From IMG/VR virus record IMGVR_UViG_2671181114_000018: a stretch of DNA of 29,945 nt; one strand, given 5' to 3'. Each line of letters opens with the position of its first letter. The first letter of the stretch is position 1. Under the pieces are notes generated by a model, which saw only the letters and a program-made list of their open reading frames with translations, was not told the DNA's origin and searched no databases. The position numbers and the translations under genes were made by a program. This document shows positions 1,440 to 29,945 of the stretch, one piece after another. Origin of the DNA: a virus (Duplodnaviria; Heunggongvirae; Uroviricota; Caudoviricetes).

Positions 1440-1728
1440 CCATCGGAAAACCATCACAACCATCACGCCTCTTAAAATCATATCTTAACCACATGAATAA
1501 TATAGATAAATGTTGTGACGGTAAAACCATCACAAAACATAACGTAAACCGTCACACCCAATAAATTCAGTAAGTTATAAAACAGAGTTGTGATGATTTA
1601 AGACCGTCACACTGTGATGCTGTTGTGATAGTTTTGTGATGGTTTTCAATACCATTATTTACTTATATATATCATATAGATAGATACTATTATTAAATTT
1701 TGTGACGTTTGTGACGGTTTTCCGATGG
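1440..1728. repeat. Iteron-like array: about 12 copies of octamer TGTGA(C/T)GG / CC(A/G)TCACA in both orientations, bounded by 19-bp inverted repeats, with an AT-rich core
   Basis: Read directly: arms ccatcggaaaaccatcaca (1440-1458) and tgtgacggttttccgatgg (1710-1728) are reverse complements with one mismatch. Octamers at about 1451, 1460, 1514, 1526, 1549, 1589, 1604, 1613, 1624, 1635, 1701, 1710. AT-rich stretch around 1650-1700. No ORF of 60 aa or more in the region. Confidence 0.8.
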
Positions 1729-2345
1729 TCCCCCTCAATTTTTGAAAAAATCAGAATCGGTCAGAAATCACCCTGATTTGTTGGTAGTTTTGTATATCTA
1801 TCTGTTAGTGACTTGAACACTGGAGCGTATACGTTAATGCAGGTATGGCGATGGTTCAGGCTGTGCAAAGTATTTCAGTTCCGCATTTCACTGCCATTCC
1901 GCGCCAGAGCACGTCAGTTAAGGCCTGGACACTTCCACGCACTGACCTGATCTCGCTGCGACCATTACGTAAAAAGTCACGTAATCGCTGTTGTTCCCGC
2001 ATGTAATCAGGCTCCGATATTTTTCATCCACAGCCGGCAATCACACAAAAACTGAAATCCTCGAAATCTGTTTCACACATTTCAGTTGGCGAACTACTGC
2101 CAAAGCCCCAGCGCTGGCGCGGTCTGGCGATGTGTTTTGTACCACCGGAAAAACTGAAATCATTCTCAACACGAAAACCGCAGGCGGGTGCGGTGTAGCG
2201 CCGTTTTCGTCACTTCCGCCGTTATTTCGTCGTGGCAGGCTGCATCAGCGCCTTGCTGCGCTTCTGAAGTTAATCAGGTTGGGATGAACGGGTGCAGATA
2301 ATTGCGGCGCTCAGAATGCGTCTGGTGAGGTCTGGGAATGGGTAC

Positions 2346-5661: not shown

Positions 5662-5663
5662 CG

Positions 5664-7451: not shown

Positions 7452-7460
7452 AAAAACTCC

Positions 7461-8054
7461 TTACAAACCTGCGCTGAATGTCGCGCTTCGGGTTTCCGTC
7501 CCTGCTAACGAAGCCGGATAAACCACATATTCCCCCTGATCCCATCCGGCTCTGATAACCATTTTTTCCGATGTGATCACCTCAAACTGATAACGACGGC
7601 ATGTTCGCCCGTACTGCCGGATTATCTGGATAAGCAGCTGCGTGTTGTCCGCTATCTGGCTGTCTGTCACACGTACCAGGAGCACATCCCAGTCAATACC
7701 CGGCTGACGCTCCCGCAGCTCCACATATCCAATGCCCAGCCGTTCAAAGATGTTGATAAATCCCTCAACGGAACCGGCATCACGCGCATTCACGAAGGCA
7801 AACGCCACCCGTTTGCGGAACAGACTCAATGGCTCACCATCAAAGCGGGTTATGTCCCGGTCATACGCCAGCAGGTTCAGTAATGCCGGTGTGCAGGTCA
7901 GCGGATCAAACTGGTTCAGTGGCCAGGTTATCCAGCCGTAAACCTCCGCCCAGAATCGCCGGGCTGTTTTCAGCAGCTTGTTCGGCTCCCCCTGATTCAT
8001 CCAGGAAGGCAGCACCATCCCGGCCAGCTTTTTCATGAACTCATTCATTCTCAA
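7461..8054 (-). CDS. Baseplate/tail protein (Mu gp48-like, DUF2313 / P2 I-position)
   Basis: 197 aa between the J-like gene and the fibre gene, the conserved position of the P2 gpI / Mu gp48 / YmfQ family. Synteny-based. Confidence 0.5.
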   Translation of the reverse strand: MRMNEFMKKLAGMVLPSWMNQGEPNKLLKTARRFWAEVYGWITWPLNQFDPLTCTPALLNLLAYDRDITRFDGEPLSLFRKRVAFAFVNARDAGSVEGFINIFERLGIGYVELRERQPGIDWDVLLVRVTDSQIADNTQLLIQIIRQYGRTCRRYQFEVITSEKMVIRAGWDQGEYVVYPASLAGTETRSATFSAGL

Positions 8055-9225: not shown

Positions 9226-9551
9226 AAATCCACCTGATAAGAAAGTGTGCCAAAGTCGTATGTACTGGCAGTCACCCAAAGGCGTTTCTGACTTTCTTCA
9301 TTGATTTCAACTGTGCCAGGCACTATGCGTTCATCATTTTCAACCAGTAATTCAAGCTGGGTAAAAATATCTGCCCTCAACGTCGGGCTTCGCTCCGCAA
9401 TCAATTGTGTTGCCAGTCCGCTTTCAATAATGGCGTGCACAATATCCTGCCCGATACTTTTACGGTTATTGCATAATTCAGGCTCATGACCTGCATTCAG
9501 TGAGAAATCACCATTATTAATAAGCAGGTCAATATAAAGAAATTCACTCAC
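9222..9551 (-). CDS. Small baseplate protein (Mu gp46-like / GPW-position)
   Basis: 109 aa directly between the tape measure and the J-like gene, translationally coupled on both sides. Synteny-based. Confidence 0.5.
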   Translation of the reverse strand: MSEFLYIDLLINNGDFSLNAGHEPELCNNRKSIGQDIVHAIIESGLATQLIAERSPTLRADIFTQLELLVENDERIVPGTVEINEESQKRLWVTASTYDFGTLSYQVDL

Positions 9552-11587: not shown

Positions 11588-12032
11588 CCTGAACCTTTAA
11601 ACGCGGTGCTTATTCCGTTAGCAACCGCTATACGCGTATTTTCCCAGTGGCGATTATCCAGCCAGATAGCGGCGGAAATATCATCCACGGAATCCTGACC
11701 ATGCGGTAAATAATGACGCCGTAATATCAGATATTGTTCGAGTCCGTTCTGTTCAATTGCCCGGACTCGCTTTGTCAGTTTTTTACTTCAATTTCCAGTT
11801 CGGGCGCATAAAGCTCATTAATTTTCCCTGCAAGCTGAAGCGCTGCCCCCGGACGTTTAAGAATATCTTCCAGCGCTTCTTTACATTCTGGTACAACAAT
11901 GCGCATAAGATAACTATGGGCTGGAGCTACTTTATTATCCATCGCCATTTCGTTGATGAATTTATTATAAGCCGTCTGATTTGGTTCAAAGGTAATGTCT
12001 TTTTTACATACAACCAGATTAATTTTTTCCAT
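11584..12032 (-). CDS. Tail assembly chaperone, long form made by programmed -1 ribosomal frameshift (P2 E+E' / lambda G-GT analogue)
   Basis: Minus strand reads gtA AAA AAC tga: perfect X XXY YYZ heptamer (plus 11778-11784) as the last codons. The -1 frame from there is open for about 64 codons across the otherwise ORF-free 11588-11774 gap and stops at TGA (11584-11586) overlapping the tape-measure ATG. Confidence 0.6.
11775..12032 (-). CDS. Tail assembly chaperone, short form (P2 E-like)
   Basis: 85-aa ORF immediately upstream of the tape measure gene, ending '...EIEVKN*' with a slippery heptamer at its 3' end. Confidence 0.6.
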   Translation of the reverse strand: MEKINLVVCKKDITFEPNQTAYNKFINEMAMDNKVAPAHSYLMRIVVPECKEALEDILKRPGAALQLAGKINELYAPELEIEVKN

Positions 12033-12318
12033 AAATAATATTCTCTCTTAAATTAATTTCATCAACCAGCGTGTTATGACGTGCAGCACATTGCCCGTAT
12101 AACTCCAGATATAGTGTCAGTAATTCCGCCGCATCTTTTCCCTGCGTGCCATTCAGGCGCGGCAGCTGCGTGGCACATTTAGTTTTCAGGTTTTCCTGAT
12201 AACGTACGTTCGGTACTGGTGACGGCATCGTTGTACATGCTGACAAAATCATCAGACAGGCACTTATTGGTAAACACCGGCTTAACCACTTCCGTACGGA
12301 TTTCACGCGGTGGCGCAT
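12019..12318 (-). CDS. o-spanin (Rz1-like outer-membrane lipoprotein), overlapping the i-spanin in another frame
   Basis: Lipobox 'LMILSAC' followed by Pro-rich 'TTMPSPVPN'; the ORF starts inside the 3' half of the i-spanin gene and extends past it. True start may be internal. Confidence 0.55.
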   Translation of the reverse strand: MRHRVKSVRKWLSRCLPISACLMILSACTTMPSPVPNVRYQENLKTKCATQLPRLNGTQGKDAAELLTLYLELYGQCAARHNTLVDEINLRENIIYGKN

Positions 12319-12511
12319 TTTTCAGTGCCTCCAGTTTGTCTTCCAGCCGGCGACCAGAAATACCGGCAATATCAGCCAGCCTTTCCCCGGTCGCAGTGGC
12401 CGCTTTTGAGACGGTCAGATCGATGCTGTCCCGTTGCCAGCCGGCCGTTTTCCAGCCGGCTAAAAATGCCAGAACAAGGGTGAATAACCAACCTGACACC
12501 ACGCGATCCAT
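12179..12511 (-). CDS. i-spanin (Rz-like)
   Basis: 110 aa with N-terminal transmembrane segment 'WLFTLVLAFLAGW' and a charged helical periplasmic part; immediately downstream of the endolysin. Confidence 0.6.
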   Translation of the reverse strand: MDRVVSGWLFTLVLAFLAGWKTAGWQRDSIDLTVSKAATATGERLADIAGISGRRLEDKLEALKNAPPREIRTEVVKPVFTNKCLSDDFVSMYNDAVTSTERTLSGKPEN

Positions 12512-12852
12512 CAGCGCACCCCGTTGTGTTCCAGGCTGAAATGATTACCATCAGGACGGGTTTTAAAACGTCCGCCCCAGCTCCCGCCCAGCGATTCCCA
12601 GTATTCCCCCAGTGGCAGATAATCTTCCGTTCGGGTTTTGTATTCGCCCTTCACAAACAGATTAAAATCCACGGCCAGACGCTGGGTGTGCAGACTGTTG
12701 GAAATACCGCTGCCCTTCTTCGCGTTCAGTGCCGCCTGTTCCGGCGTCCGGTACGCCTCACCGAACGTCAGCCACATCCCGTTGGCGTTGGCATACTGGA
12801 TCAACAAAGCAATCATTGATGTAAACCGTTGTTGTTTCTCGCTCAGCGTCAT
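12511..12852 (-). CDS. Endolysin, peptidase M15 family (L-alanyl-D-glutamate peptidase type)
   Basis: 113 aa with 'HTQRLAVD' (H-x6-D) and 'DGNHF' zinc-ligand motifs typical of M15/VanY-type endolysins; lies between holin and spanins. Confidence 0.75.
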   Translation of the reverse strand: MTLSEKQQRFTSMIALLIQYANANGMWLTFGEAYRTPEQAALNAKKGSGISNSLHTQRLAVDFNLFVKGEYKTRTEDYLPLGEYWESLGGSWGGRFKTRPDGNHFSLEHNGVR

Positions 12853-13145
12853 TTCCCTGCCCCTTTATCAAAAATCCCTGTAAGGCCACGTTTGCGCAGC
12901 CAGGCTTCCACCACGTTCTGCCCCAGAATACCCAGCGCGGAACCAATGCCGGCCAGCGCAAGTGGGTGAATATCCGGGACAAAGTACAGTGCCACGCCGG
13001 CAATTAGTGACAATCCGCTGCCAACAATGACACGGCCAGTGACCAGCCGAAGGGTGATCGGCTCGTCGCTGTTGAGTAATTTCCCCAGTGCAATCATCGC
13101 CCCCATGACAGCCAGTGCAATGAACCCTTTTTCATACTCCTGCAT
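12849..13145 (-). CDS. Holin (putative)
   Basis: 98 aa with 2-3 hydrophobic segments ('FIALAVMGAMIALG', 'VIVGSGLSLIAGVALYFV', 'LALAGIGSALGILG') and a charged C-terminus; directly upstream of the endolysin. Confidence 0.6.
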   Translation of the reverse strand: MQEYEKGFIALAVMGAMIALGKLLNSDEPITLRLVTGRVIVGSGLSLIAGVALYFVPDIHPLALAGIGSALGILGQNVVEAWLRKRGLTGIFDKGAGK

Positions 13146-13157
13146 CCCTGCTGCCTC

Positions 13158-13613
13158 TTATCCAATCAGGTTTTCCGTGGCTTCCGCTTCCAGATACGGC
13201 ACCCCGTTGATGTTCACGAACTTAGGACTTGTCACGAAGTATTTGATTTTGTGCGTGGATACGCTGCCACCCTTCGGATCACCATCCAGTACACTGTTGA
13301 GCTGGAGCTTGTTCCCGAAGGTTTCCACCTTCATTTCTTCGCTGCCGGCTTTGGCGTAAAAAAGGAAATCCACCGGGGGAATACCCCGCCATGAACCCGC
13401 TGAACGGGCTTTGGCCGTCAGTACCTGAAGCACTTTTGAGCTGACTTCAATTTCCCCTTCGGCGGCAACATCGCCGTCAATATAGCCGTCCGGGACACCG
13501 CGTGTCTGGGCTGCGGCGCTGTTGTCGGTGATATCCAGCGAAATTTTTTCAATGTGGATCAGGTCGCCGTCCACGTAGACGTCAAAGGACATCCCTGAAA
13601 TACGTTTGGTCAT
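13158..13613 (-). CDS. Tail tube protein (putative)
   Basis: 151-aa ORF directly downstream of the putative sheath gene, overlapping stop/start. Sheath-tube gene-pair logic; no motif verified. Confidence 0.5.
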   Translation of the reverse strand: MTKRISGMSFDVYVDGDLIHIEKISLDITDNSAAAQTRGVPDGYIDGDVAAEGEIEVSSKVLQVLTAKARSAGSWRGIPPVDFLFYAKAGSEEMKVETFGNKLQLNSVLDGDPKGGSVSTHKIKYFVTSPKFVNINGVPYLEAEATENLIG

Positions 13614-14737
13614 GCGCTGGCCTCCAGACTCGCATCCAGTAACAGACTGATGGTGATTTGCAGTGGTACTTCATACGTACGCACCACAATGTAGATATCC
13701 ACCGCCTTTTTGTTCTTCCAGACAATGGTCACGTCACCGTCCTGCGGTGGCTTCACTTCGCCCGGAAATGACACGCCGTTAATACTGGCCGCCGTGGACA
13801 TTTCACGCAGCGGACGGGCAAACAGCGTCTGGTGTGCGGCAATACTGCCCGGTGTACTGTTCAGTGAGCGATCGGCAATCTTACCGATGGCCAGCAGACG
13901 GACACGACGTGCTGCCTTATCCACAATACGCAGCGTCTCAATGGACTGATAATCACCGCCCTCAACGTCGAGTGTACGACCGTCAGACCAGTAAAAGCCG
14001 TCATAGTCCGGATACCACATCGGCACGCTGTAGCGCTGTGCCTCCAGCGCCTGAAGGGTCGCCAGCTCCAGCGTTGCCCCTGCTCCATCTTTCGGCAGTT
14101 CGTCGCTACCCAGGCTCAGTAATGGTCCGGTTTTTACCCGCGCCGGACTGTCAGCGATGGTAACAGCGCGATTACAGAGGCGACCGGCAAGCACGCCCGG
14201 ATCATTCCCCCAGAGGCGCGGAACCAGTTGCACCGATTTTTCAGCAATACCCTGCTGAAGGGTGGACAGACGTTTCAGATAATCCGCCTGTGATTCATCC
14301 TCCTGCATTCCCTGTACGGCCAGAATGAACCACACCCAGCGGCCGTATTTTGCAATCAGTTCAGATCGCAGCGTTGCCGCCTGGTTAATCTGCTCTTTTG
14401 CCGCCACATCATCAGACAGCACCACACCTTCCACCGAACAGGAAACCTGTGCAGCTTTGACGGCATCAACCCACGCCCCCGGCTCACTGTCAGCGGCCAG
14501 CACATGGATAAATCCCCACCAGTTCTGTCCGGCGTTCGCCAGTGCGGCCAGAACATCGCTTTTTAACGGGCTGTCCCCCTCACCCAGCAGCGCATCAAAA
14601 TCGCTCTGTGCGTTAACTGCCTGTGTTTTCCCTACATTTTTGGTTCCCGTACCGATAAACAGCAGCGTGCGCTCCACTTCCGTGGTTTCACCCAGCAGCT
14701 GATTTACCTGGTTTACGGTCACAATTGGCCAGGTCAT
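13610..14737 (-). CDS. Tail sheath protein (putative)
   Basis: 375-aa ORF followed by a small tube-size ORF, downstream of the tail-completion genes. Synteny-based. Confidence 0.5.
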   Translation of the reverse strand: MTWPIVTVNQVNQLLGETTEVERTLLFIGTGTKNVGKTQAVNAQSDFDALLGEGDSPLKSDVLAALANAGQNWWGFIHVLAADSEPGAWVDAVKAAQVSCSVEGVVLSDDVAAKEQINQAATLRSELIAKYGRWVWFILAVQGMQEDESQADYLKRLSTLQQGIAEKSVQLVPRLWGNDPGVLAGRLCNRAVTIADSPARVKTGPLLSLGSDELPKDGAGATLELATLQALEAQRYSVPMWYPDYDGFYWSDGRTLDVEGGDYQSIETLRIVDKAARRVRLLAIGKIADRSLNSTPGSIAAHQTLFARPLREMSTAASINGVSFPGEVKPPQDGDVTIVWKNKKAVDIYIVVRTYEVPLQITISLLLDASLEASA

Positions 14738-15438
14738 GATCTCCCCCTGATATCCTGCGCGTTAACATCCCAGCCGAACCCGATAGCCTGAAGCTGTCGC
14801 GCCAGCGCTTTGTTAAAGTCATCCTGACCGATCCCCAGAAATCCCCTGGCAGGTAAATCTATCTGCCAGGATGTTTTGACCGGCTTGTCCTCCAGTATCC
14901 GGATAAGCAAACCTGCCTGTCTGGCGGTCATTTTTTCCTGTATTTCCTTATATCCGGGCTTGCGCCAGCGCTTGCCGCGCCTGACTTTATACCCGGCCTT
15001 ACGCAGACGTTTCGCCTGTCGCAGTGATGCAGGTTTATCCCCCTGCTCACGGCCTTCCACCTGCTTGCGGTTGACGGTCACGCTCATGCCGTTCTGCTGG
15101 ACATAACCCACCACGCCGGCAGGCAGATTTCCCTTCGCATTCCGGTAATTACCACCGGTCAGATACAGCCTGACAGACTCCGTTTCTGGCATTTCACGGA
15201 TGCGGATAAGTTTCGGCATATTGCGCAACATTTTGCCTTTACGCCGGGTCTGTCTCCCCTGCCACTTATCCCCCTCCGGTGACTGCTGATTACGCACATT
15301 GCGCTTTGCTGCGGCTTCCACGCCGTATTTCGCCATTCGCCACAGCAGCCGGCGACGTTTGGCAGGAGGCAAATCCAGCTTTTTCAGCGCCTCCTGTAGC
15401 TGGCGGAACTGTTCCTGGTTCAGTTCGCCATTTATCAT
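14734..15438 (-). CDS. Virion morphogenesis / tail completion protein (P2 S-like)
   Basis: 234 aa, very basic C-proximal region, positioned after the R-like gene as in P2 (L-...-R-S). Confidence 0.5.
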   Translation of the reverse strand: MINGELNQEQFRQLQEALKKLDLPPAKRRRLLWRMAKYGVEAAAKRNVRNQQSPEGDKWQGRQTRRKGKMLRNMPKLIRIREMPETESVRLYLTGGNYRNAKGNLPAGVVGYVQQNGMSVTVNRKQVEGREQGDKPASLRQAKRLRKAGYKVRRGKRWRKPGYKEIQEKMTARQAGLLIRILEDKPVKTSWQIDLPARGFLGIGQDDFNKALARQLQAIGFGWDVNAQDIRGRS

Positions 15439-15917
15439 TCCTGCCCCTCATTGACGGGGATCACCGTCACCTCATCCGCCGTCCAGACTTCGGGATTTGC
15501 CAGCTTCCAGCGCTGGCCATCAAACGGGATCTGACCTTTGGGATCGGGGATCAGATTCAGTTCCTCCACCATTGGCAGCGTCACCACCATGATGGCGGTT
15601 TCCTGGTCGATGGTTTCAATATCAAATTCCGGCAGTTCGGCATCAATGCCGGTTTCCTCAAAGAGCGCCCGCTCATCCTGGCAAAGCCACGACATAAACA
15701 ACGCCATCAGGATTTTGGGATCGTACTCGCGGTAGGGATAACGCTCCCACGTCAGCACAGCGTTATAGCGAATGATGGCAATGCGATACTGCCCCAGCCC
15801 GGTGTCACGCTGTGCCGGGATGAATGCGATTTCATCCATCTGGCTGTCAAATCCCTGCATTGCCCGTTTGGGCATGTTCGCAATGAGAAAATCCGTTAAT
15901 TCGGTGAGCTGGCTCAT
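15435..15917 (-). CDS. Tail completion protein (P2 R-like)
   Basis: 160 aa immediately after the head completion gene, translationally coupled; size matches P2 gpR. Confidence 0.5.
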   Translation of the reverse strand: MSQLTELTDFLIANMPKRAMQGFDSQMDEIAFIPAQRDTGLGQYRIAIIRYNAVLTWERYPYREYDPKILMALFMSWLCQDERALFEETGIDAELPEFDIETIDQETAIMVVTLPMVEELNLIPDPKGQIPFDGQRWKLANPEVWTADEVTVIPVNEGQE

Positions 15918-22269: not shown

Positions 22270-22545
22270 ATGCGGGTAATGAAGGTTTACTGTCCGGTAT
22301 GTGAGGCAAGGGCTGTTATCAAAAAAACAGCCAGAAAACACAAGGAGCTGTCTGATTTATATTGCGCCTGTACTGATGTTGAATGCGGTCACACTTTTGT
22401 GATGAATATGACGTTCTCACATACCATCAGCCCCAGCGCCAAATCCAGCGATGCGTTGATCGCCACTATCTGTAACAGCCTTGATATGCAGCAAAAACAG
22501 CTGATGCTCAAATTTTTAAGTCAGGATGCTACCGCAGCAGCATAG
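22270..22545 (+). CDS. ogr: Ogr/Delta-family zinc-finger late transcription activator
   Basis: Track ORF starts at 22216 overlapping the Q stop; likely start at Met 'MRVMKVYCPVC' (22270, GGAG about 9 nt upstream) or 'MKVYCPVC' (22279). Cys pattern CPVC...YCACTDVECGHTF parallels P2 Ogr CPLC...HQCQNVNCSATF as I recall it. Confidence 0.7.
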   Translation: MRVMKVYCPVCEARAVIKKTARKHKELSDLYCACTDVECGHTFVMNMTFSHTISPSAKSSDALIATICNSLDMQQKQLMLKFLSQDATAAA

Positions 22546-22574
22546 AAAAAGGCACCGTTACAGGTGCCTTTTTT
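22546..22574. terminator. Bidirectional rho-independent terminator between ogr-like gene and the convergent cargo gene
   Basis: aaaaa-ggcacc-gttaca-ggtgcc-tttttt: 6-bp GC stem flanked by an A-run and a T-run, immediately after the ogr stop and 17 nt from the stop of the minus-strand cargo gene. Confidence 0.6.
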
Positions 22575-22590
22575 CATAGACACTGAGCAA

Positions 22591-23598
22591 TTATTTGCTT
22601 TTATTTCCATCATTATTAGGATGATTTACAGGAGTAAGGCCTGAGGCTACATCATTAGCAGTTTGAAGACTGGTAGGAATCAGACCGGGCCAATTTGCCC
22701 CATTTAGTCCCCAATTGAGTTTAGCTAAATTCTCACCAGGCCAGGTTGATTTCGCAGAATTTAAATCAAGTCCCTGAAGCCCCTGAAGCCCCTGAACCCC
22801 CTGAAACCCCAGAGAACCTAAAGTCGGCCTGGCAAAAGGCAGTGTATTCTTAGATATTTCCTGATTAATATCGTCTAATTTATTTTGATTCGCTATAATT
22901 TTGGCATTCAAATCCATCAATTCTTTTTCTTTTAATTCCAATTCCGTCCTCACCTTCGAAATTGAGTCCATAGCATTATAATAAGAATTGGTAACTGACT
23001 GAACCTCTTTTCCCTTTTCCTTTATTAACTCATTAATATCCCTGAGCTTTACCTGAGCGTTATTATATTTATCTTCAAGCGCGTTTGTATCATATTCGAT
23101 AGCTTTATTTGCCTTTTCAGCATTTAACCTCGCTTTTGCGTCTGCATATTCATACTCGACATTTTTATTTATTTCGTCTATTTTTAAATCAAGAGCACTC
23201 TGTTTTCTCTTACTATCATTTGTACTCTTTTTCGTAAGCACTCCATTTTGTATTACATCAACAACATATGAGATAAAAGGAGTGCCAACTACAAATATAA
23301 TTGAGGCAACAAATGGATACCAAAACGTATGAGTATGAGGGATGCTAATTCCAAAAAAGACACTATTTGATGGTAACGCCTTTATTTTTTCAATACGTTG
23401 TTCTATGTCCAGACTGAACGAGAATAAGAGTAATAGAGTGCGGTCCCAGTTACAGAGAATCCAAGAGGATATGAAGCATAGAAAAAATGGATTTGATAAC
23501 CGTTGATTAACAGCTTTCACTACCGGTTCAGTTGTAACTGATTTTACCGCATCCAAAGCTTTATCTATTGTTTCGCTCATTTTAGGAGTATCAACCAT
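22591..23598 (-). CDS. Accessory membrane-anchored coiled-coil protein with C-terminal collagen-like G-x-Q repeats (candidate superinfection-exclusion/defence cargo)
   Basis: 335-aa ORF (start may be the internal Met 'MSETIDK'). Hydrophobic N-terminal segments ('FFLCFISSWILC', 'VASIIFVVGTPFISYVV'), long K/E-rich heptad region, C-terminal 'GFQGVQGLQGLQGL'. Visibly AT-rich; sits between the replication gene and ogr/portal, the position of tin/old in P2. Confidence 0.5.
   Translation of the reverse strand: MVDTPKMSETIDKALDAVKSVTTEPVVKAVNQRLSNPFFLCFISSWILCNWDRTLLLLFSFSLDIEQRIEKIKALPSNSVFFGISIPHTHTFWYPFVASIIFVVGTPFISYVVDVIQNGVLTKKSTNDSKRKQSALDLKIDEINKNVEYEYADAKARLNAEKANKAIEYDTNALEDKYNNAQVKLRDINELIKEKGKEVQSVTNSYYNAMDSISKVRTELELKEKELMDLNAKIIANQNKLDDINQEISKNTLPFARPTLGSLGFQGVQGLQGLQGLDLNSAKSTWPGENLAKLNWGLNGANWPGLIPTSLQTANDVASGLTPVNHPNNDGNKSK
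22772..22807. repeat. In-frame tandem repeat, 4 units of 9 bp (ccctgaagc x2, ccctgaacc, ccctgaaac) inside the cargo gene
   Basis: Read directly from the plus strand; on the minus strand the units encode the G-L/F/V-Q triplets of the collagen-like tail. Confidence 0.9.
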
Positions 23599-23714
23599 TA
23601 TTTTTAAACAAAGTTATTGATAAATGAATAATATCATACTACTAGAAAACTGTAACATCACGACTTCCTTCATGATGTCACAGTTTTTAGCTATAACTGA
23701 GAGATATAAAGTAG

Positions 23715-26369
23715 TTAATCTCGTTTAAAAATCCAGCATCGGAATGTATCCGGCATCCGTTGCATATCCCCTTTACCACGGTTATGGCGCTCACTAACTG
23801 CGCTGCGCGTGGTGCTTTGTCTGATGAACCGACGTTCATTACCGTTTTTAAGCAGCTTTTTGATTTCCGTTAAAGTGAACGGAATCCGCTGCCGGTGTGC
23901 TGCTGCGACTTCTTCCATATGATTGAAATTAATTGCAATTTCATTTTCATCTGATGAGTGATTGACGCCATAGGGTGCCAGTTCATCCAGGTAATCAAAC
24001 AGTTCCCAAAACTCCTGCACCATCGGGTGATCCTTTTTAAGCGCCTGACAACGTTCAATAGCCAGCGCGGTGATGGCTTCGCGAGTTTTTTCTATGCGTT
24101 CAACCGGTACCGGCACAACAAGCGCAAGCGCCTCCAGCAAACCCACAAGCTGCGCGTGATTCTTTGCAATACGGATATGGCGAATACTACTGTTAGATTC
24201 CAGCGCATTCCTGGCGCGTTCGTATCCCTTACCGAACGTCTGCATGATTTCTTTCTCACGCATGGTGGCCAGTAGTGTGAATCCCGATACCTGGCTAACA
24301 GGGAGTTGTTCCAGCCGCTCCGCAGCGTGGCGCGTCTGAATAGACTGCCCGCGCTTGTCGGTATAGATATGGATAATACGCTCCAGAAACGCCTTGCTGC
24401 CGTCTGTATCAGCGTTCTGCGCAATCACAATACTGCCCCTGAATGGCGGTTCGTATGTTTCGTTATTGTTGGACTTTATCCCCACAGCACGGGAAGCGCG
24501 GCCGTTATACAATGATTTCAGTTCATCCCAGTCAAAAGCACGTTGCTTGGCGTTATCCGTTGTGCGGTCGCCTTCGATTAACACAACCGGCAGGTTGCCG
24601 ACCTGGGCAAAGTTGCGCCCACGCGCTGCGGCCGTGGACTTAGAAGGATCAAAACCTTCATATTCTTCACGGCCGGCGAGCTTCCACAGAAATTCAATCA
24701 GTGTAGATTTACCTGTCCCCGGTTCACCCACGATTTCCAGAAACGGGAATGACTTATCGCGCTCCCGGATTTGTTCGGCAAAAAGCGACCCCAGCCAGAA
24801 TGCTAGCGCCACGTACCCCTTTTCACCAAATGCCGTCCAGATATCGTCAATCCAGCCCGTGGTAAATTCATTCAGCTTTGGATTCAGATCCAGCGATGGT
24901 GTCAGGCTCAGGCTTTTTACACTGGCGTGATTGATTTCAAAATAGTCTTCATCGTTCATCTCATACAGCCGGCCATCGCACACGGCCACACGGTTAAACA
25001 GCCACGCTGAATAATCTTTGTTGTAGCCGATAAAGTTCTGTGTCTTAACCTCTTTTATTTCAGGAAGCCGCATCTGGATGAACTTATCCAGTTGCTTGGT
25101 GCTGCCGGTGTATACCGCCCCTTTGGCGATATGCAGCAAACGTTTCTTAAACTCGGCGGAGCTGGTGAGCTGGTTCGCCGTGAAGGTATCCTTCACCGCT
25201 GGCCGGTTCGGCATGTTGACCTTAACGTAATACCAGGACTCGTCAGTAGGTTCAGAACGCTGGAAATAGAGCGGAGTCAGCCAGCAGTTAGCTATTTCTG
25301 TCACGCCGCCAGATTCTTTCACCGCACGTTCTTTGGCTTCCCAGTCCTGGATAACTTCGGTACCGGTATTACTTATGCGCTCATAGGCTCGCATGTACCT
25401 GTCCAGATCCAGTTCAAACCAGAACATGCGGGAATTATGTTCAAAATAGAACGAATGCCACTCATTATGCTGATGCATGAGCAGCGCTTTTTCAGTCGGA
25501 CTTTTCGCCAGCAGAATATCGCCATAGTAGCGATAATTTTTGATGTCCGATTTACTGAACCGGCCACGCAACAACAAGTCATTCCAGTCCAGACAGGAGG
25601 ATGATTTCACCGGCTGCGCCGCACGAACTTTCCAGCCGGCATCCTCACTACGTGCAGCAAATGCCAGCGTGTGCTTTGTGCCGGCCTTATCGCCGTCAAA
25701 TGCCCATACAAGGCGTGGGCGCGGTTTTTCGCCCAGTTCTTTGGCCAGCGTATCCAGTGCGGCCAGAGGGTAGTTGTTACTGCTCAGTGTGGCAACTGCG
25801 GGTAAACCCGCCTGGCAAAGACTCAGCGCATTAAATATCCCCTCAGTGATCCAGATTTCATTCACTTCCAGCAGGTTGACAGAAGGTGGTACCCACCAAT
25901 GGCCAACATAACTCCCTTTAATATTGGCTTTTTGCTTACCAAAGCGTTGGGGCTGGTCAATAATGCGCTCCCACGTCGCACCACATGCCAGCTTAAATTT
26001 GACTGTTGCCGATCCCATGCCATCTTTAACAAACGCGCCCTGGGTGAAAATGCCTTTCAGTGGTTCGGTATCCAGCCCTCTGGCCTCACGCAGATACGCC
26101 TCAGCAGCTGCGTGTGGGGTTTCAGGAGTGTCCTGATACCGTTTAGACCAGTCCTCAAAAATATCCGGGTACAGCTCTTTAACAACGACCTGATGGCCGC
26201 AGTTATTTTCGCGACCACACTTCAGAATCCAGGGCTTATCTATGCTGGTGAATAATTCGCGCTTACGACACTTAGGGCATACACCCTGCTGCAAATACTT
26301 ATCCCGCTCTTTAAACTCAAAATCCTGAACAAGACGGCGCACAACGTCCTGTTGTATCGTTGCGTTCAT
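23715..26369 (-). CDS. Replicative primase-helicase, P4 alpha-type (zinc-binding primase + D5-like SF3 helicase)
   Basis: Track ORF 23715-26405 (896 aa); probable start 'MNATIQQ' (26369). N-terminal zinc-ribbon Cys pairs (CPKC...CGRENNCGH), Walker A 'GEPGTGKST' in the helicase part; size and domain order resemble P4 alpha. Confidence 0.8.
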   Translation of the reverse strand: MNATIQQDVVRRLVQDFEFKERDKYLQQGVCPKCRKRELFTSIDKPWILKCGRENNCGHQVVVKELYPDIFEDWSKRYQDTPETPHAAAEAYLREARGLDTEPLKGIFTQGAFVKDGMGSATVKFKLACGATWERIIDQPQRFGKQKANIKGSYVGHWWVPPSVNLLEVNEIWITEGIFNALSLCQAGLPAVATLSSNNYPLAALDTLAKELGEKPRPRLVWAFDGDKAGTKHTLAFAARSEDAGWKVRAAQPVKSSSCLDWNDLLLRGRFSKSDIKNYRYYGDILLAKSPTEKALLMHQHNEWHSFYFEHNSRMFWFELDLDRYMRAYERISNTGTEVIQDWEAKERAVKESGGVTEIANCWLTPLYFQRSEPTDESWYYVKVNMPNRPAVKDTFTANQLTSSAEFKKRLLHIAKGAVYTGSTKQLDKFIQMRLPEIKEVKTQNFIGYNKDYSAWLFNRVAVCDGRLYEMNDEDYFEINHASVKSLSLTPSLDLNPKLNEFTTGWIDDIWTAFGEKGYVALAFWLGSLFAEQIRERDKSFPFLEIVGEPGTGKSTLIEFLWKLAGREEYEGFDPSKSTAAARGRNFAQVGNLPVVLIEGDRTTDNAKQRAFDWDELKSLYNGRASRAVGIKSNNNETYEPPFRGSIVIAQNADTDGSKAFLERIIHIYTDKRGQSIQTRHAAERLEQLPVSQVSGFTLLATMREKEIMQTFGKGYERARNALESNSSIRHIRIAKNHAQLVGLLEALALVVPVPVERIEKTREAITALAIERCQALKKDHPMVQEFWELFDYLDELAPYGVNHSSDENEIAINFNHMEEVAAAHRQRIPFTLTEIKKLLKNGNERRFIRQSTTRSAVSERHNRGKGDMQRMPDTFRCWIFKRD

Positions 26370-26408
26370 ATATAATCCATGTGTGAAATGATGAATAAAA
26401 GGCAAAAA

Positions 26409-26627
26409 CTATATTCTGTACTGCTTGTTATATCTTTCATGCGTCATTAACTCCCAGCTTCTGCCCTTATCCTTACTAAGCAAACGCCAGCGATAGGAGA
26501 CATGAACAGAGAAATAATGATTTGGTTTTATAACCTGATATATCTTTTTGCCGTTGTAATATTCTGTCAGCGCTGAAAATGCCTTGTTAATGACACTTTC
26601 ACTTGCATGAGAGGTCACTTTCAGCAT
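26409..26627 (-). CDS. Hypothetical early protein
   Basis: 72-aa ORF immediately upstream of the primase-helicase gene in the same operon; AT-rich; no motif recognised. Confidence 0.35.
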   Translation of the reverse strand: MLKVTSHASESVINKAFSALTEYYNGKKIYQVIKPNHYFSVHVSYRWRLLSKDKGRSWELMTHERYNKQYRI

Positions 26628-26629
26628 AG

Positions 26630-27199
26630 TTATTTCACACTGGCTATTTTAACGAGATAAGTCCAGACGTAAGACACTAGTTTAGCCTGATAAATAGCGT
26701 CATATAGTGCATGGTGCGGTGTACCTTCAAATTTAATAATATTTTTGATGTTCAAACCTAAATCTTTGGCCAGCGCATTTATCGTCCTGACATCCCGGTC
26801 ATTCCAGTAATTCCACATCGGGCTTAACAAGCCTACCTTATTTGCAGCATGGCGGAGGATAACGTTATCAAACGACGCTCCATTACCCCAAACCTGTAAA
26901 TGATGTGCATCAGTGAGTTCACTGATAAAGTGGAAAAGGTCAGAAATGGCCGTATCCAGCGGACAATTCGCATCATTAATAATCTCGCTCCTTGCTTCGG
27001 AGGACTGACGCAGCCACCACAGAACTGTATCGGCTCCCATAGTGCAGTCGTAATCAACGCTACTTGCAAGACTGACACGGCGATAGAAAGTTTCCCCCAT
27101 TTCACCCGTTTCCGGATTAAATAATACAGCGCCAATAGCGGTAATTGCTGCCGTTGGTTTGTTATCCATTGTTTCAAGATCAATCATTAAATGTTTCAT
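26630..27199 (-). CDS. 3'-5' exonuclease (DnaQ-like fold)
   Basis: 189 aa beginning 'MKHLMIDLETMDNKPTAAITAIGAV...', an Exo I-type motif (D-x-E); later 'HHALYDA' resembles the Exo III motif. Common in P2-like early operons. Confidence 0.65.
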   Translation of the reverse strand: MKHLMIDLETMDNKPTAAITAIGAVLFNPETGEMGETFYRRVSLASSVDYDCTMGADTVLWWLRQSSEARSEIINDANCPLDTAISDLFHFISELTDAHHLQVWGNGASFDNVILRHAANKVGLLSPMWNYWNDRDVRTINALAKDLGLNIKNIIKFEGTPHHALYDAIYQAKLVSYVWTYLVKIASVK

Positions 27200-27208
27200 A
27201 TCGGTTCC

Positions 27209-27544
27209 TTAACGTTGGGAAGCTGCAACAGGTTTTAGATGGGAGTTATTTATTCTTAATGCGTTAGTCGCCAGAGACATAAGACCTGAAATATTGTTTT
27301 CGGTTGGGATGTTTCCACCGAACACCATAAGCGTGATTTTATGAAGTTCCTCAAAATCTTCACTGTCATTATTAAAACGAGCAGTAGAGGTTATACCTTC
27401 AAGACATTTTGCAAGCTGAATGTTTAATTCCATTAACTGCAAACCATCGCTATGAACAGAGAACGTTTCTTTATCAATGGCTTTAGCCTGAGCGTGATAA
27501 TTTTGCAACAGGCTGCGTATGAGAGTCGCGTATTTAGTTTTCAT
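27209..27544 (-). CDS. Hypothetical early protein
   Basis: Track ORF 27209-27577; likely start at internal Met 'MKTKYATLIR' (27544), just after the cox stop. No motif recognised. Confidence 0.35.
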   Translation of the reverse strand: MKTKYATLIRSLLQNYHAQAKAIDKETFSVHSDGLQLMELNIQLAKCLEGITSTARFNNDSEDFEELHKITLMVFGGNIPTENNISGLMSLATNALRINNSHLKPVAASQR

Positions 27545-27816
27545 CGTGGTTCTCCCAAACCCAGCCACATTAACCACCCATCCCTAATTTCCTTCGGGCG
27601 GCTCTCATACGCTAATTTCATTCCGTTGTTCCAAGCAGGAAGATAAATCCAATATTCTCCAGCTCGACCAGAGGTGGATTGCGGGTCTGTCATTTCAACA
27701 ATAGGTAATTTCCCTTTTTCAATCATCCCCTTTACAGCTCGCTCCGATTTTCCAATGAGCCGAGCGAATTCCTGATAGGGGACAGCATCGCTGGTTAGAA
27801 CAATTTGCTTAGTCAT
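27541..27816 (-). CDS. cox: Cox-like excisionase / early-promoter regulator
   Basis: 91 aa, first gene of the early operon, divergent from C. Length and sequence closely resemble P2 Cox as I recall it ('...IPYQEFAKLIGKS...GRAGEYW.YLPAWNNG...'). From memory. Confidence 0.75.
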   Translation of the reverse strand: MTKQIVLTSDAVPYQEFARLIGKSERAVKGMIEKGKLPIVEMTDPQSTSGRAGEYWIYLPAWNNGMKLAYESRPKEIRDGWLMWLGLGEPR

Positions 27817-27933
27817 TTCAAGCCCTCTCGCGGTTCTGAAATTGCCTTTAATGGCTTATAGTGTCCTCTGATGTTCAGTTTTAAACATCAAACAATCTAC
27901 ATCTAAATCAAATACTATTGAGATCTAAACACC
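27817..27933. promoter_or_regulatory. Immunity switch region between cox and C (early and repressor promoters with operator-like repeats)
   Basis: 117-bp AT-rich intergenic region between divergent genes. Direct repeats ATCTAAA at 27901-27907 and 27923-27929 (22-bp spacing) and palindrome tgatgtt-N8-aacatca (27869-27890). Promoter elements not individually assigned. Confidence 0.5.
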
Positions 27934-28233
27934 ATGTCAAACACGATAGGCGAAAAAATAGTACTAATTAGAAAGTCTGAATACCTAAGTCGACAGCAAC
28001 TAGCTGATATATCTGGCATTCCTTATGGGACTCTTAGTTATTACGAAAGCGGTCGTTCTACCCCTCCGACTGACGTTATGATGAAAATCCTCCAAACACC
28101 GCAGTTCACTAAATACACCCTATGGTTTATGACTGACCAAATCTCGCCAGAATCCGGTCAGATCGCGCCGGCTCTCGCACACTTTGGGCAAGATGCAACA
28201 ACCTCGCAGCCCTCAGACCAAAAGACTGGCTAA
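27934..28233 (+). CDS. C: Immunity repressor C (P2 C-type)
   Basis: 99 aa; 'MSNTIGEKIVLIRKSEYLSRQQLADISGIPYGTLSYYESGRSTPPTDVMMKILQTPQFTKYTLWFMTDQISPESGQIAPALAHFGQ' is near-identical to P2 C as I recall it, same length. Confidence 0.9.
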   Translation: MSNTIGEKIVLIRKSEYLSRQQLADISGIPYGTLSYYESGRSTPPTDVMMKILQTPQFTKYTLWFMTDQISPESGQIAPALAHFGQDATTSQPSDQKTG

Positions 28234-28348
28234 CCATTTACCGCGAATACATGCACCACAAGTGCATGCTACTGGCAGCTAAATTTTGCACCAGACATTA
28301 CAAAGAGTTAGGAACGAGAAGAGAACGAACCCATCGGAGGGCTTTCTT

Positions 28349-29362
28349 ATGACAGTTAAGAAACTCGATGATGGTCGGTATGAAGTGGATATCAGACCTG
28401 CCGGGCGCAACGGAAAGCGCATCCGCAGGAAGTTCGACAAAAAAAGCGAGGCTATCGCTTTCGAAAAACACACGCAGTACAACCACCACAACAAAGAATG
28501 GCTTTCGAAGCCGACAGACAAGCGGCGTCTGTCAGAGCTAACGGCTATATGGTGGGAGTTGAAAGGAAAGCACGAGGAACACGGAAAATCTAATCTTGGG
28601 AAAATTGAAATATTTACCCGGATAACTGATGACCCCTGTGCGTTCCAGATAACGAAAGCACTTATCAGCCAGTACAGCGCTACCCGCAGAAGCCAGGGTA
28701 TAAAGCCATCAAGCATTAACCGGGATTTAACCTGCATAAGTGGCATGTTCACCGCATTAATTGAGGCTGAATTGTTCTTCGGTGATCACCCGATACGCGG
28801 TACGAAAAGACTGAAAGAACAGAAGCCGGAAACCGGCTATCTGACACAGGATGAAATTAGCTTGTTGCTTTCGCAACTGGACGGAGACAACAAGAAGATT
28901 GCGATTCTTTGTCTTAGTACCGGCGCAAGATGGGGTGAAGCCGCGCGGCTGAAAGCGGAGAACGTGATCCATAACCGCTGTACGTTTGTTAAAACCAAAA
29001 CGAACAAACCACGCACTGTGCCAATTTCTGACGAGGTGGCAAATATGATCGCCAACAACAAGCGAGGCTTTCTTTTTCCGGATGCAAACTATCCAGCATT
29101 CAGACGGTTGATGAAGGAACTGAAACCTGATCTTCCGGCCGGACAAGCAACCCACGCATTGCGTCACAGCTTCGCAACCCATTTCATGATTAACGGTGGG
29201 AGCATCATCACGCTGCAACGTATCCTTGGCCATTCGCGAATTGAGCAAACTATGGTCTACGCACACTTTGCCCCGGAATACTTGCAGGACGCGATCGCCC
29301 TCAATCCGTTACGTGGAGGAATTGAGGTTCAGAGTGTCCACACAGTGTCCACAGACGAGTAA
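28349..29362 (+). CDS. int: Tyrosine integrase (P2 Int-type)
   Basis: Track ORF starts at 28286 with TTG; real start is Met 'MTVKKLDDGRYEVDIRPAGRNGKRIRRKF' at 28349 with GGAGGG upstream. Catalytic C-terminal 'HALRHSFATHFMINGGSIITLQRILGHSRIEQTMVYAHF' (R..H-x-x-R...Y). Downstream of C as in P2. Confidence 0.9.
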   Translation: MTVKKLDDGRYEVDIRPAGRNGKRIRRKFDKKSEAIAFEKHTQYNHHNKEWLSKPTDKRRLSELTAIWWELKGKHEEHGKSNLGKIEIFTRITDDPCAFQITKALISQYSATRRSQGIKPSSINRDLTCISGMFTALIEAELFFGDHPIRGTKRLKEQKPETGYLTQDEISLLLSQLDGDNKKIAILCLSTGARWGEAARLKAENVIHNRCTFVKTKTNKPRTVPISDEVANMIANNKRGFLFPDANYPAFRRLMKELKPDLPAGQATHALRHSFATHFMINGGSIITLQRILGHSRIEQTMVYAHFAPEYLQDAIALNPLRGGIEVQSVHTVSTDE

Positions 29363-29446
29363 CTAAATATGGCTTTCAGTGGTCTTGTGTGCCGCGCAAA
29401 CCCGCATTGCACCGTTGAAAGCCCCTATTGTAAGGGTACATAAACG

Positions 29447-29469
29447 CCCTTACACGGGCTTATTTTTTT
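29447..29469. other. Phage attachment-site core (prophage right junction), P2-type core
   Basis: cccttacacgggcttattttttt is the reverse complement of the P2 att core AAAAAATAAGCCCGTGTAAGGG as I remember it; about 85 bp downstream of int, within a hairpin (gtaaggg...cccttac) plus T-run. Confidence 0.6.
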
Positions 29470-29627
29470 ATGCATAAGCCCTATCTCTGGTAACCGTCTT
29501 CCATTGACCACATCGATAGAATCCTCCTTCATAGCACGATGCCTTTCACTTATCGGCATCGTGCTCCCACAAGTTCCGGCTACGCACAGCCAGAACGCGC
29601 ATATTTGACGCTTACCAAAAAATATTC

Positions 29628-29945
29628 TCACTCTCCACATTTGAATGTCAGACGAGCGACACCATGTAATCCTACACCTTCTGTCTTCAGCTCAACTATT
29701 TGCATTTTTTTGCCCTGAGTAACACAGAAATGAGTTGCATCATTTTTTACTATATTTTCTGCACCAGATATTCTACCCCTGGCTAAAGAAGCTTCGGCTT
29801 CGGTGTAGTATTGGTTATCGAGTTTACGCTGAATATTACTTTTATATGCAAGACCAAATTTACCGATACTTGTCTCATCATTATGCACAGCACAACCAGA
29901 CATAATAAAAATACTAATTAATGATATAGCAGCTATCTTTTTCAT
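29628..29945 (-). CDS. Small lipoprotein (probably flanking, non-phage gene)
   Basis: 105 aa starting at the window edge; signal peptide with lipobox 'IMSGC' (MKKIAAISLISIFIMSGCAV). AT-rich; outside the att core. Confidence 0.55.
   Translation of the reverse strand: MKKIAAISLISIFIMSGCAVHNDETSIGKFGLAYKSNIQRKLDNQYYTEAEASLARGRISGAENIVKNDATHFCVTQGKKMQIVELKTEGVGLHGVARLTFKCGE

What the first reader, a model, noticed from the sequence alone, without database searches (positions are those of the whole stretch)
23715..26405. Mosaic replication module: P4-alpha-type primase-helicase inside a P2-type lysogeny and late-gene backbone
The immunity and integration genes (int, C, cox, att core) are P2-type, but the replication gene is a P4-alpha-like primase-helicase rather than the P2 A rolling-circle initiator with B. 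The early operon is cox, unknown, exonuclease, unknown, replicase. This implies theta-type or primase-dependent replication in a P2-like helper-type phage and shows modular exchange between helper and satellite lineages.
Basis: partly seen in the sequence, partly recalled or inferred. Interest (0 to 1): 0.5.

Follow-up and report, generated by a model that had tools for sequence, protein, structure and literature searches.

The report
phiCTX-type primase-helicase in P2-family prophage
The large gene is a real primase-helicase replication protein, but it is the normal replicase of a known branch of P2-family phages (phiCTX / Evevirus type), not a recent import from satellite P4; the swapped part is the P2-like integrase-repressor-Cox cassette.

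Summary
The ORF exists as described: 23715-26405 on the minus strand, 896 aa from TTG, most likely 884 aa from the ATG at 26369. It has a Cys4 zinc ribbon, a DnaG/T7-gp4-type Toprim primase, a three-tier AAA+ helicase and a C-terminal winged helix. No P2 A or B gene is in the window or in complete relatives.

The protein belongs to PHROG 1139, the phiCTX orf37 family found across several Peduoviridae genera. The window is collinear, at 84-87% nt identity, with Escherichia phage ESSI2_ev239 (Evevirus; replicase 94.6% aa).

The exchanged module is cox-C-int-att (27545-29468). It is 80-89% aa identical to P2 but only 38-53% to the backbone's relatives. Contigs with 99%-identical replicases carry other cassettes.

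I also found a probable origin at 1440-1728: at least 11 iterons and an 86% A+T block, bounded by a 27-nt inverted repeat. Homologous cassettes lie just downstream of the replicase gene in relatives.

Verdict: ordinary, a new member of a known kind.

The parts
23715..26369 (-). Replicase CDS, 884 aa (the ORF extends to a TTG at 26405, 896 aa). A fusion of zinc ribbon, DnaG-type primase, Cch/SaPI-Rep-like helicase and winged helix.
26184..26315 (-). Zinc ribbon, aa 19-62; invariant C31, C34, C51, C57.
   Evidence: invariant columns; beta-strand pattern; no Pfam zinc-ribbon hit
25554..26183 (-). Primase RNA-polymerase domain with Toprim, aa 63-272. Motifs ITE176GIF, FD225GDKAG and D261WND are conserved.
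24870..25463 (-). Beta-rich N-tier of the helicase, aa 303-500.
   Evidence: AF2 secondary structure; covered by the Cch and SaPIbov1 Rep alignments of 438 and 419 residues
24270..24857 (-). AAA+/SF3-like ATPase, aa 505-700. Walker A G548EPGTGKST556, Walker B VVLIE599GD601, sensor-1 IAQ651N652, invariant R664.
   Evidence: DUF5906 sub-threshold in 40 of 46 members; hhalign to the P4 alpha ATPase core 87.6%
23718..24269 (-). Helical lid plus C-terminal winged-helix-like domain (aa 701-884); presumed iteron reader.
   Evidence: AF2 elements H815-840 and E846-883; assigned by analogy with the SaPI Rep C-terminal winged helix (PMC9371898); binding is inferred, not tested
1440..1728 (.). Candidate replication origin. 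A 27-nt inverted repeat bounds at least 11 RTCACA iterons (consensus about ACCRTCACAA) and an 86% A+T block at 1650-1699.
   Evidence: (10 of the 17 CRTCACA sites in the window lie here); homologous cassettes next to rep in relatives
26409..26627 (-). 72-aa ParE-like ORF directly upstream of the replicase in the early operon.
   Evidence: Pfam PF24732 1e-16; PHROG 1525
26630..27199 (-). DEDDh 3'-5' exonuclease (Rv2179c-like).
   Evidence: Pfam PF16473 2e-72; PHROG 255
27209..27544 (-). 111-aa early gene of unknown function (PHROG 7058). Last backbone gene before the mosaic junction.
   Evidence: 93-95% aa to relatives
27541..27816 (-). cox, 80% aa to P2 Cox; first gene of the early operon.
27912..27940 (-). 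Early promoter (Pe-like), TTGACA-17-TAGTAT.
   Evidence: a consensus match only
27934..28233 (+). Immunity repressor C, 87% aa to P2 C.
28349..29362 (+). Integrase, 89% aa to P2 Int.
29442..29468 (.). att core region (end of P2 homology); yegR lies beyond it.
23646..23687 (-). 18-nt-arm hairpin followed by T's just after the replicase stop codon; probable terminator of the early operon.
1872..2202 (.). AACTGAAAT repeats (1872, 2050, 2079, 2152) and the inferred cos cleavage region (about 2185-2190).
   Evidence: The ESSI2_ev239 record ends in Nextera adapter read-through immediately after the sequence homologous to window ~2179-2187 (...CCGCAGGCGGG)

Best explanation
The window holds most of an Evevirus-like Peduoviridae prophage of E. 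coli, integrated beside yegR. Its native replicase is a single 884-aa polypeptide of the phiCTX orf37 / PHROG 1139 family.

Proposed mechanism (inferred). After derepression, Pe transcribes cox, orf111, the exonuclease, the ParE-like gene and the replicase. The replicase's C-terminal winged helix binds the RTCACA iterons of a palindromic origin at 1440-1728. Two hexamers self-load on either side of the 86% A+T block, as described for SaPI Rep and Cch. The AAA+ ring then unwinds the DNA. The fused zinc-ribbon/Toprim primase lays down primers for the host polymerase III. This gives theta-type (later possibly sigma) replication with no nicking initiator.

The mosaic event in this particular phage is replacement of the int-C-cox-att cassette by a P2-like one. 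That swap changes immunity and integration site. It is not acquisition of the replicase.
For: Identity and family:
- PHROG 1139 matches over the full length at 1250 bits.
- tblastn gives 94% to ESSI2_ev239, 47% to RSY1, 41% to phiCTX orf37, 40% to Smp131 and 29% to phi3, all Peduoviridae.
- 1632 database homologues and at least 597 IMG/VR stretches.

Backbone and mosaic:
- The window is collinear with ESSI2_ev239 at 84-87% nt from 1430 to 27544, then switches to P2 homology at 27545-29468.
- L011 is the same phage. L009, L010 and L012 have 99%-identical rep but a different cassette.

Domains:
- Pfam Toprim is significant.
- Invariant Cys4, E176, D225, K554, E599/D601, N652 and R664.
- AF2 model with pLDDT 86.8.

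Origin:
- The iteron cluster, 27-nt inverted repeat and AT block are shown.
- The same cassette layout (CGGAAAAC, two iterons ... two iterons, GTTTTCCG) occurs in L023, with variant end sequences in L026 and L036. GTYACA/CCTTACA-type clusters lie 0.2-1.3 kb downstream of rep in eight relatives.
- phi3 has 10 copies of CGGAACA 75 bp after rep. phiCTX has its own cluster.
- Controls: the scan recovers the annotated P4 ori and crr and finds nothing in P2.
- P2-type cos cores in L024 and L026 lie beside the portal gene, 2.6-3.3 kb from the iterons. This separates the iterons from packaging.
- The SaPI ori description (iterons on both sides of an AT-rich centre, pointing in opposite directions, read by a C-terminal winged helix) is in PMC9371898.
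Against: - No experiment on any member of this family was found in the searched literature; phiCTX orf37 and Smp131 orf39 are only called 'primase-like'.
- In the window the iterons lie about 460 bp from the inferred cos site. In phiCTX they lie about 170 bp from cos. A packaging role is therefore not excluded for those two phages.
- In about 50 of the 63 loci scanned (60 IMG/VR loci plus phiCTX, RSY1 and phi3) no cluster was detected. These are mostly high-GC relatives, or close relatives whose cluster would lie outside the fetched flank.
- The helicase and winged-helix assignments rest on a predicted structure.
- The DUF5906 and DUF927 hits are all below the Pfam thresholds.
- The left prophage end is not in the window, so completeness of the element is not shown.
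Confidence: 0.75

Rival explanations
1. One reading: the replicase is a P4-alpha-type gene moved from the P4 satellite lineage into a P2-type helper phage.
For: The domain order is the same as in P4 alpha: zinc ribbon, Toprim primase, P-loop helicase, C-terminal DNA-binding domain. Both hit Pfam Toprim_3 and, weakly, DUF5906. hhalign gives 87% for the Toprim core and 87.6% for the ATPase core.
Confidence: 0.05
2. The iteron cassette at 1440-1728 is not the origin. It is instead a packaging (cosB-like terminase/IHF) or partition site, and the real origin lies elsewhere, for example inside or next to the replicase gene.
For: The cassette lies about 460 bp from the inferred cos site. The phiCTX cluster is next to its known cos and carries annotated IHF sites. 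No iterons were found next to rep in the window.
Against: In L024 and L026 the homologous cassette is adjacent to rep and 2.6-3.3 kb from a P2-type cos core. P2, whose terminase is homologous, has no such cluster. The symmetric layout of iterons around an AT block matches described SaPI origins (PMC9371898). A separate repeat set (AACTGAAAT) lies between the cassette and cos, its nearest copy about 25-30 bp from the inferred cleavage site.
Confidence: 0.15
3. The protein is not the phage replicase. It is an accessory or defence-type primase-ATPase, or the prophage is defective.
For: There are weak PADLOC hits to the DnaG-like domains of DRT systems, E 1e-7 and 8.5e-6. No experimental data exist for the family.
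Against: It is the only replication-type gene in the complete 29-kb relative ESSI2_ev239. It sits in the early operon in the place of P2 A. It is conserved across Peduoviridae genera with all catalytic residues invariant. The PADLOC hits cover only the Toprim segment.
Confidence: 0.05

Closest known systems
phiCTX orf37 family (PHROG 1139 'DNA primase'), as in Escherichia phage ESSI2_ev239 (Evevirus), phiCTX (Citexvirus), RSY1 (Arsyunavirus), phi3 (Phitrevirus) and Smp131
   Same: Full-length homology: 94.6% aa to ESSI2_ev239 gp29, 41% to phiCTX orf37 and 29% to phi3. Same position at the end of the early operon. Same Peduoviridae head module.
   Different: In this copy the flanking lysogeny cassette is P2-like rather than the Evevirus type. 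The cargo genes also differ. No member has been studied biochemically, as far as the searched library shows.
SCCmec Cch and SaPIbov1 Rep (self-loading, MCM-like initiator-helicases of staphylococcal mobile elements)
   Different: Sequence identity is only 12-14%. Pfam DUF927 is hit sub-threshold in only 6 of 46 members. Here a DnaG-type primase is fused at the N-terminus, whereas Cch and Rep use separate primases. In this phage the origin is several kb from rep rather than immediately downstream.
Satellite phage P4 alpha protein (D5-family SF3 primase-helicase)
   Same: The functional logic is the same: one polypeptide combining a zinc ribbon, a DnaG-type Toprim primase, a hexameric helicase and a C-terminal origin-binding winged helix that reads short iterons (ori/crr). 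The Toprim and ATPase cores are distantly homologous.
   Different: No D5_N, Pox_D5, Zn_Ribbon_Prim or TIGR01613 signatures. The middle and C-terminal domains cannot be aligned. The iteron sequence differs (P4 TGTTCACC against ACCRTCACA here). The protein is 884 aa against 777 aa.
P2 gpA / gpB rolling-circle system
   Same: It occupies the same slot in the early operon downstream of cox.
   Different: There is no Phage_GPA domain and no homology. P2 nicks an origin inside gene A, whereas this phage has an iteron origin and a primase-helicase.

Membership tests
P4 alpha / D5-family primase-helicase (TIGR01613, D5_N, Pox_D5) | D5_N domain (PF08706) preceding the helicase | tested here: not met
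   Present in P4 alpha. Absent from the window protein and from all 46 aligned family members at E<=0.1. hhalign of the middle regions gives probability 0.1%.
P4 alpha / D5-family primase-helicase (TIGR01613, D5_N, Pox_D5) | C-terminal Pox_D5 / P4-type origin-binding winged helix and TIGR01613 primase_Cterm | tested here: not met
   No Pfam PF03288 hit and no NCBIfam TIGR01613 hit. hhalign of the C-terminal regions gives probability 0.1%.
P4 alpha / D5-family primase-helicase (TIGR01613, D5_N, Pox_D5) | Zn_Ribbon_Prim (PF08273) N-terminal zinc-binding domain | tested here: not met
   No hit. A Cys4 ribbon exists but cannot be aligned to that of P4: hhalign 2.4%.
P4 alpha / D5-family primase-helicase (TIGR01613, D5_N, Pox_D5) | Toprim primase core and SF3-type Walker A/B/C ATPase core | tested here: met
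   Toprim_3 at 3e-11. hhalign gives 87% for the primase core and 87.6% for the ATPase core against a P4 alpha alignment. These features are shared with many other families.
DnaG/T7 gp4-type (Toprim) primase | Zinc ribbon plus RNA-polymerase domain with Toprim Glu and DxD acidic residues | tested here: met
Cch / SaPI-Rep-type self-loading initiator-helicase | Three-tier fold: N-tier, AAA+ ATPase, C-terminal domain with winged helix | tested here: met
Cch / SaPI-Rep-type self-loading initiator-helicase | Sequence membership (Pfam DUF927) | tested here: inconclusive
   DUF927 is hit in 6 of 46 members, best E 9e-5. The window protein itself gives no hit.
Cch / SaPI-Rep-type self-loading initiator-helicase | Cognate origin made of short iterons on both sides of an AT-rich centre, in opposite orientations | tested here: met
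   Window 1440-1728. Homologous cassettes lie next to rep in relatives. Binding was not tested.
Cch / SaPI-Rep-type self-loading initiator-helicase | ATP-independent origin binding and melting, and 3'-5' helicase activity | not testable with these tools
   This requires biochemistry.
P2 gpA rolling-circle initiator | Phage_GPA (PF05840) HUH nickase domain, with a gpB partner | tested here: not met
   P2 A hits PF05840 at 2e-124. Neither A nor B gives a tblastn hit better than E=1 in the window. At E<=1e-3 neither hits ESSI2_ev239, phiCTX, RSY1 or phi3.
Peduoviridae, Evevirus-like backbone | Collinear nucleotide similarity to Evevirus ev239 and a P2-family head module | tested here: met
   84-87% nt identity over about 24 kb. 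Capsid 93% and portal 92% aa. Head genes are 23-45% aa to P2. The similarity is below 95% nt, so this is not the same species.

The most novel reading that the evidence does not exclude
This untested family would be a distinct replicon class: a DnaG-type primase fused to a Cch/MCM-like self-loading initiator-helicase, working with a portable, palindromic iteron origin cassette of about 290 bp. The cassette sits beside rep in some phages and several kb away, beyond att, in others. The replicon would drive a large share of Peduoviridae. It may also drive ~12-kb satellite-like islands (L030, L032, L036) that carry the replicase, an integrase, the iterons, an Ogr/Delta homologue and a P2-family capsid homologue, but no detected terminase or portal.
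Probability: 0.45. Interest if true: 0.45.

Novelty: new member of a known kind. Interest (0 to 1): 0.25.

Why it matters
P2 is the textbook for its family, so P2-like prophages are often assumed to replicate by gpA rolling-circle initiation. A recent large survey even uses GpA as a core marker (labelling it a primase) and notes that many prophages lack a match (PMC13586616). This window is a clean example showing that a whole branch of Peduoviridae uses a different, self-contained primase-helicase replicon. It also shows that immunity/integration cassettes, not the replicase, are what get swapped between P2 and this branch. The candidate origin gives a directly testable rep-ori pair in E. coli. 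None of this is surprising to a phage genomics specialist, because the gene family has been visible since the phiCTX genome was sequenced.

Tried and rejected
- PDB sequence search with the protein found only marginal Lon P-loop hits.
- The NCBIfam scan gave only a weak dnaG Toprim hit.
- A search near the replicase gene (22400-28300) found no iterons, only a terminator-like hairpin.
- A search for P2/phiCTX cos overhang sequences in the window found nothing convincing. I inferred cos instead from adapter read-through in the ESSI2_ev239 record.
- A plasmid search meant to separate rep-ori from packaging found only 4 records, which look like phiCTX-type episomes, so it was uninformative.
- RSY1 and most high-GC relatives showed no exact-k-mer iteron cluster. 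Degenerate iterons were not searched for.
- The P4 alpha alignment used for hhalign is shallow (85% identity or more), which limits sensitivity.
- I considered and rejected a defence-system reading of the replicase, because the PADLOC hits cover only the Toprim segment.
- I did not use the search of protein representatives or the metagenome and genome scans; the family's size was already clear.
Full report
**1. The observation**

Homologues and the annotated ESSI2_ev239 gene begin at the equivalent of the ATG at 26369, and M1 is nearly invariant. The product is therefore most likely 884 aa.

The gene order upstream is as described:
- cox, 27541-27816
- a 111-aa unknown, 27209-27544
- a DEDDh exonuclease, 26630-27199
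- a 72-aa ParE-like ORF, 26409-26627
- the replicase

A near-consensus promoter lies at 27940-27912 on the minus strand. An 18-nt-arm hairpin follows the replicase stop codon.

**2. What the protein is**

Sequence evidence:
- Pfam gives significant Toprim_3 and Toprim_2 hits. DUF5906 P-loop matches are sub-threshold.
- PHROG 1139 'DNA primase' matches from end to end at 1250 bits.

A 46-sequence alignment shows these invariant residues:
- a Cys4 ribbon: C31, C34, C51, C57
- the Toprim Glu, E176 in ITEGIF
- the DnaG-like FD225GDKAG motif, and D261
- Walker A, G548..GK554ST
- Walker B, E599/D601
- sensor-1, N652
- R664

Structural evidence comes from an AlphaFold model built on that alignment (pLDDT 86.8).
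- Among viral models the best matches are Toprim and DUF927 proteins. P4 alpha is not in the top 50.

The protein is thus a zinc-ribbon/DnaG-type primase fused to a Cch/SaPI-Rep-like three-tier initiator-helicase with a C-terminal winged helix.

**3. Is it 'P4-alpha-type'?**

Only in architecture.
- BLASTP to P4 alpha gives two short HSPs, one over the Toprim core and one over Walker A (E 0.002-0.003).
- Domain-wise hhalign gives 87% probability for the Toprim core and 87.6% for the ATPase core. It gives nothing for the zinc ribbon (2.4%), the middle domain (0.1%) or the C-terminal domain (0.1%).
- P4 alpha hits Zn_Ribbon_Prim, D5_N and Pox_D5. None of the 46 family members does.
- TIGR01613 is not hit.
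- Kazlauskas et al. place P4 alpha in the D5 group of SF3 helicases and list DUF927 proteins fused to DnaG or AEP primases as a separate, uncharacterised group (PMC4889955).

Membership in the P4 alpha family is therefore rejected. 'Works like P4 alpha' stands.

**4. Is there a P2 A/B pair?**

No. P2 A (Phage_GPA, 2e-124) and P2 B give no tblastn hit in the window. At E<=1e-3 they also give none in ESSI2_ev239, phiCTX, RSY1 or phi3. The left end of this prophage is outside the window, so absence there is inferred from the complete relatives.

**5. Where the mosaic really is**

- The window is collinear with Escherichia phage ESSI2_ev239 (Peduoviridae, Evevirus) at 84-87% nt from 1430 to 27544.
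- The exceptions are the tail-fibre region (5343-6597), a cargo slot (22442-23728) and part of the exonuclease gene.
- Exactly at the cox stop codon the similarity switches to P2: 75.8% nt over 27545-29468, reaching the attP core.

| Gene | vs P2 (aa) | vs ESSI2_ev239 / E. coli NT1F10 prophage (aa) |
|---|---|---|
| Int | 89% | 47-53% |
| C | 87% | 38-45% |
| Cox | 80% | 38-42% |
| Replicase | no hit | 94.6-94.8% |
| Portal, capsid | 35%, 29% | 92-96% |

IMG/VR holds the same phage (L011: cassette 99.7%, cargo 97%). It also holds three contigs with 99%-identical replicases but unrelated lysogeny cassettes. So the replicase is backbone and the immunity/integration cassette is the exchanged module.

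The host flank is E. coli yegR at 99.8% identity. Close versions of the replicase occur in only 19 of 5426 complete E. coli genomes. In the example examined (strain NT1F10) the prophage lies beside pheL/pheA and carries its own int-repressor-cox set.

**6. 'P2-type late backbone' is only partly right**

The head and packaging genes are P2-family at 23-45% aa. The sheath, tube and baseplate genes give no P2 hit. The tail gene order (sheath, tube, lysis genes, tape measure, baseplate, fibres) is that of ESSI2_ev239 and phi3, not of P2.

**7. How it probably works: a candidate origin**

A k-mer cluster scan found one dense iteron cluster in non-coding DNA at 1440-1728.
- Ten of the window's 17 CRTCACA sites lie in these 289 bp.
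- The element is bounded by a 27-nt inverted repeat. Each arm holds two tandem iterons.
- It contains an 86% A+T block at 1650-1699.
- It is conserved in ESSI2_ev239.

Related cassettes occur in relatives.
- Relatives whose replicases are 50-56% identical carry related clusters 0.2-1.3 kb downstream of rep: L023, L024, L026, L027, L028, L030, L032 and L036.
- L023 has the same layout as the window: CGGAAAAC, two iterons ... two iterons, GTTTTCCG. L026 and L036 have variant end sequences.
- Their iterons are GGTYACAA, or CCTTACA in L028.
- phi3 has 10 CGGAACA copies 75 bp after rep. phiCTX has an AAGGTAAT cluster, the annotated 'R3 repeats'.

Controls behave as expected. The scan recovers the annotated P4 ori and crr, and it finds nothing in P2.

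Packaging can be separated from the iterons.
- L024 and L026 have exact P2-type cos cores (GGCGAGGCGGGG and GGCGTGGCGGGG) beside the portal gene, 2.6-3.3 kb from the iterons.
- In the window, cos is inferred at about 2185-2190. The ESSI2_ev239 record runs into Nextera adapter sequence right after the homologous ...CCGCAGGCGGG.
- A different repeat, AACTGAAAT, fills 1872-2160 next to that site.

The layout matches published SaPI origins. Those have iterons on both sides of an AT-rich centre, with at least two per side in opposite orientation. A C-terminal winged helix reads them, and two hexamers self-load (PMC9371898). Binding, melting, priming and helicase activity are all inferred, not shown.

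**8. Comparison and novelty**

- The family has been in the databases since the phiCTX genome (orf37) and has its own PHROG.
- It is annotated 'DNA primase' or 'toprim domain-containing protein' in RefSeq.
- It has 1632 detected homologues.
- The closest named phage belongs to an ICTV-classified genus.
- I found no paper that characterises the protein or names an origin.

The finding is therefore a new member of a known kind. Interest is low to moderate. The origin candidate is the one useful new lead.

Noticed in passing
window 1440-1728: Palindromic iteron cassette: at least 11 RTCACA iterons, an 86% A+T block and 27-nt terminal inverted repeats. It is conserved in ESSI2_ev239. Homologous cassettes lie next to the replicase gene in relatives. 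Probable phage origin.
   Followed up: yes
window 1872-2202; L001 29100-29203 and 1-123: AACTGAAAT repeats lie next to an inferred cos site (about 2185-2190). The RefSeq/GenBank record of ESSI2_ev239 appears to end in Nextera adapter (CTGTCTCTTATACACATCT...) plus poly-A. Its first ~116 nt are a misplaced tail-fibre fragment that matches window 7144-7266. This looks like adapter or chimera contamination in a reference record.
   Followed up: partly
window 22591-23598 (-): Low-GC (37%) 335-aa cargo gene with an N-terminal hydrophobic segment, coiled coil and GLQ repeats (9-nt tandem repeats at 22768-22812). It hits PHROG 4780 and, weakly, LmuB/SMC-like PADLOC models. It sits in the replicase-to-portal slot, which is a known P2 defence hotspot. 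ESSI2_ev239 and the NT1F10 prophage carry different genes there.
   Followed up: partly
window 1-1365 (-), cut by the window edge: Low-GC FRG-domain ORF of at least 454 aa, with weak hits to the PADLOC candidate system PDC-S15. It occupies the slot where ESSI2_ev239 carries an O-acetyltransferase. It is probably a moron or defence cargo. attL lies beyond the window.
   Followed up: partly
window 26409-26627 (-): 72-aa ParE-like toxin-domain ORF (PF24732) immediately upstream of the replicase, with no obvious antitoxin partner. The NT1F10 prophage has it at 93% aa; it is not annotated in ESSI2_ev239.
   Followed up: no
window 26630-27199 (26677-27067 divergent): The exonuclease gene is internally mosaic. 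It is only 48% (ESSI2_ev239) and 67% (NT1F10) aa identical, while the genes on both sides are 93-95%. This suggests a second recombination patch inside the early operon.
   Followed up: no
L030, L032 (about 3500-15500), L036: About 12-kb satellite-like islands encode a replicase of this family (about 50% aa), one or two integrases, the GGTTACA iteron cassette, an Ogr/Delta homologue and a P2-family capsid homologue. No terminase or portal homologue was detected, and tail genes were not comprehensively screened. In L032 the island is flanked by host genes on one side and by another prophage on the other. These may be a satellite lineage that uses the phiCTX-type replicase.
   Followed up: partly
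window 29442-29945: The prophage is integrated beside E. coli yegR (99.8% identity to many strains). This fits its P2-like integrase and att core. Relatives with other integrases sit elsewhere, for example beside pheL/pheA in strain NT1F10.
   Followed up: partly
window 5343-6597: The tail-fibre segment is not shared with ESSI2_ev239. The C-terminal fibre part and the fibre-assembly protein are 48-53% aa to P2 H and G. This is the usual host-range cassette exchange.
   Followed up: no
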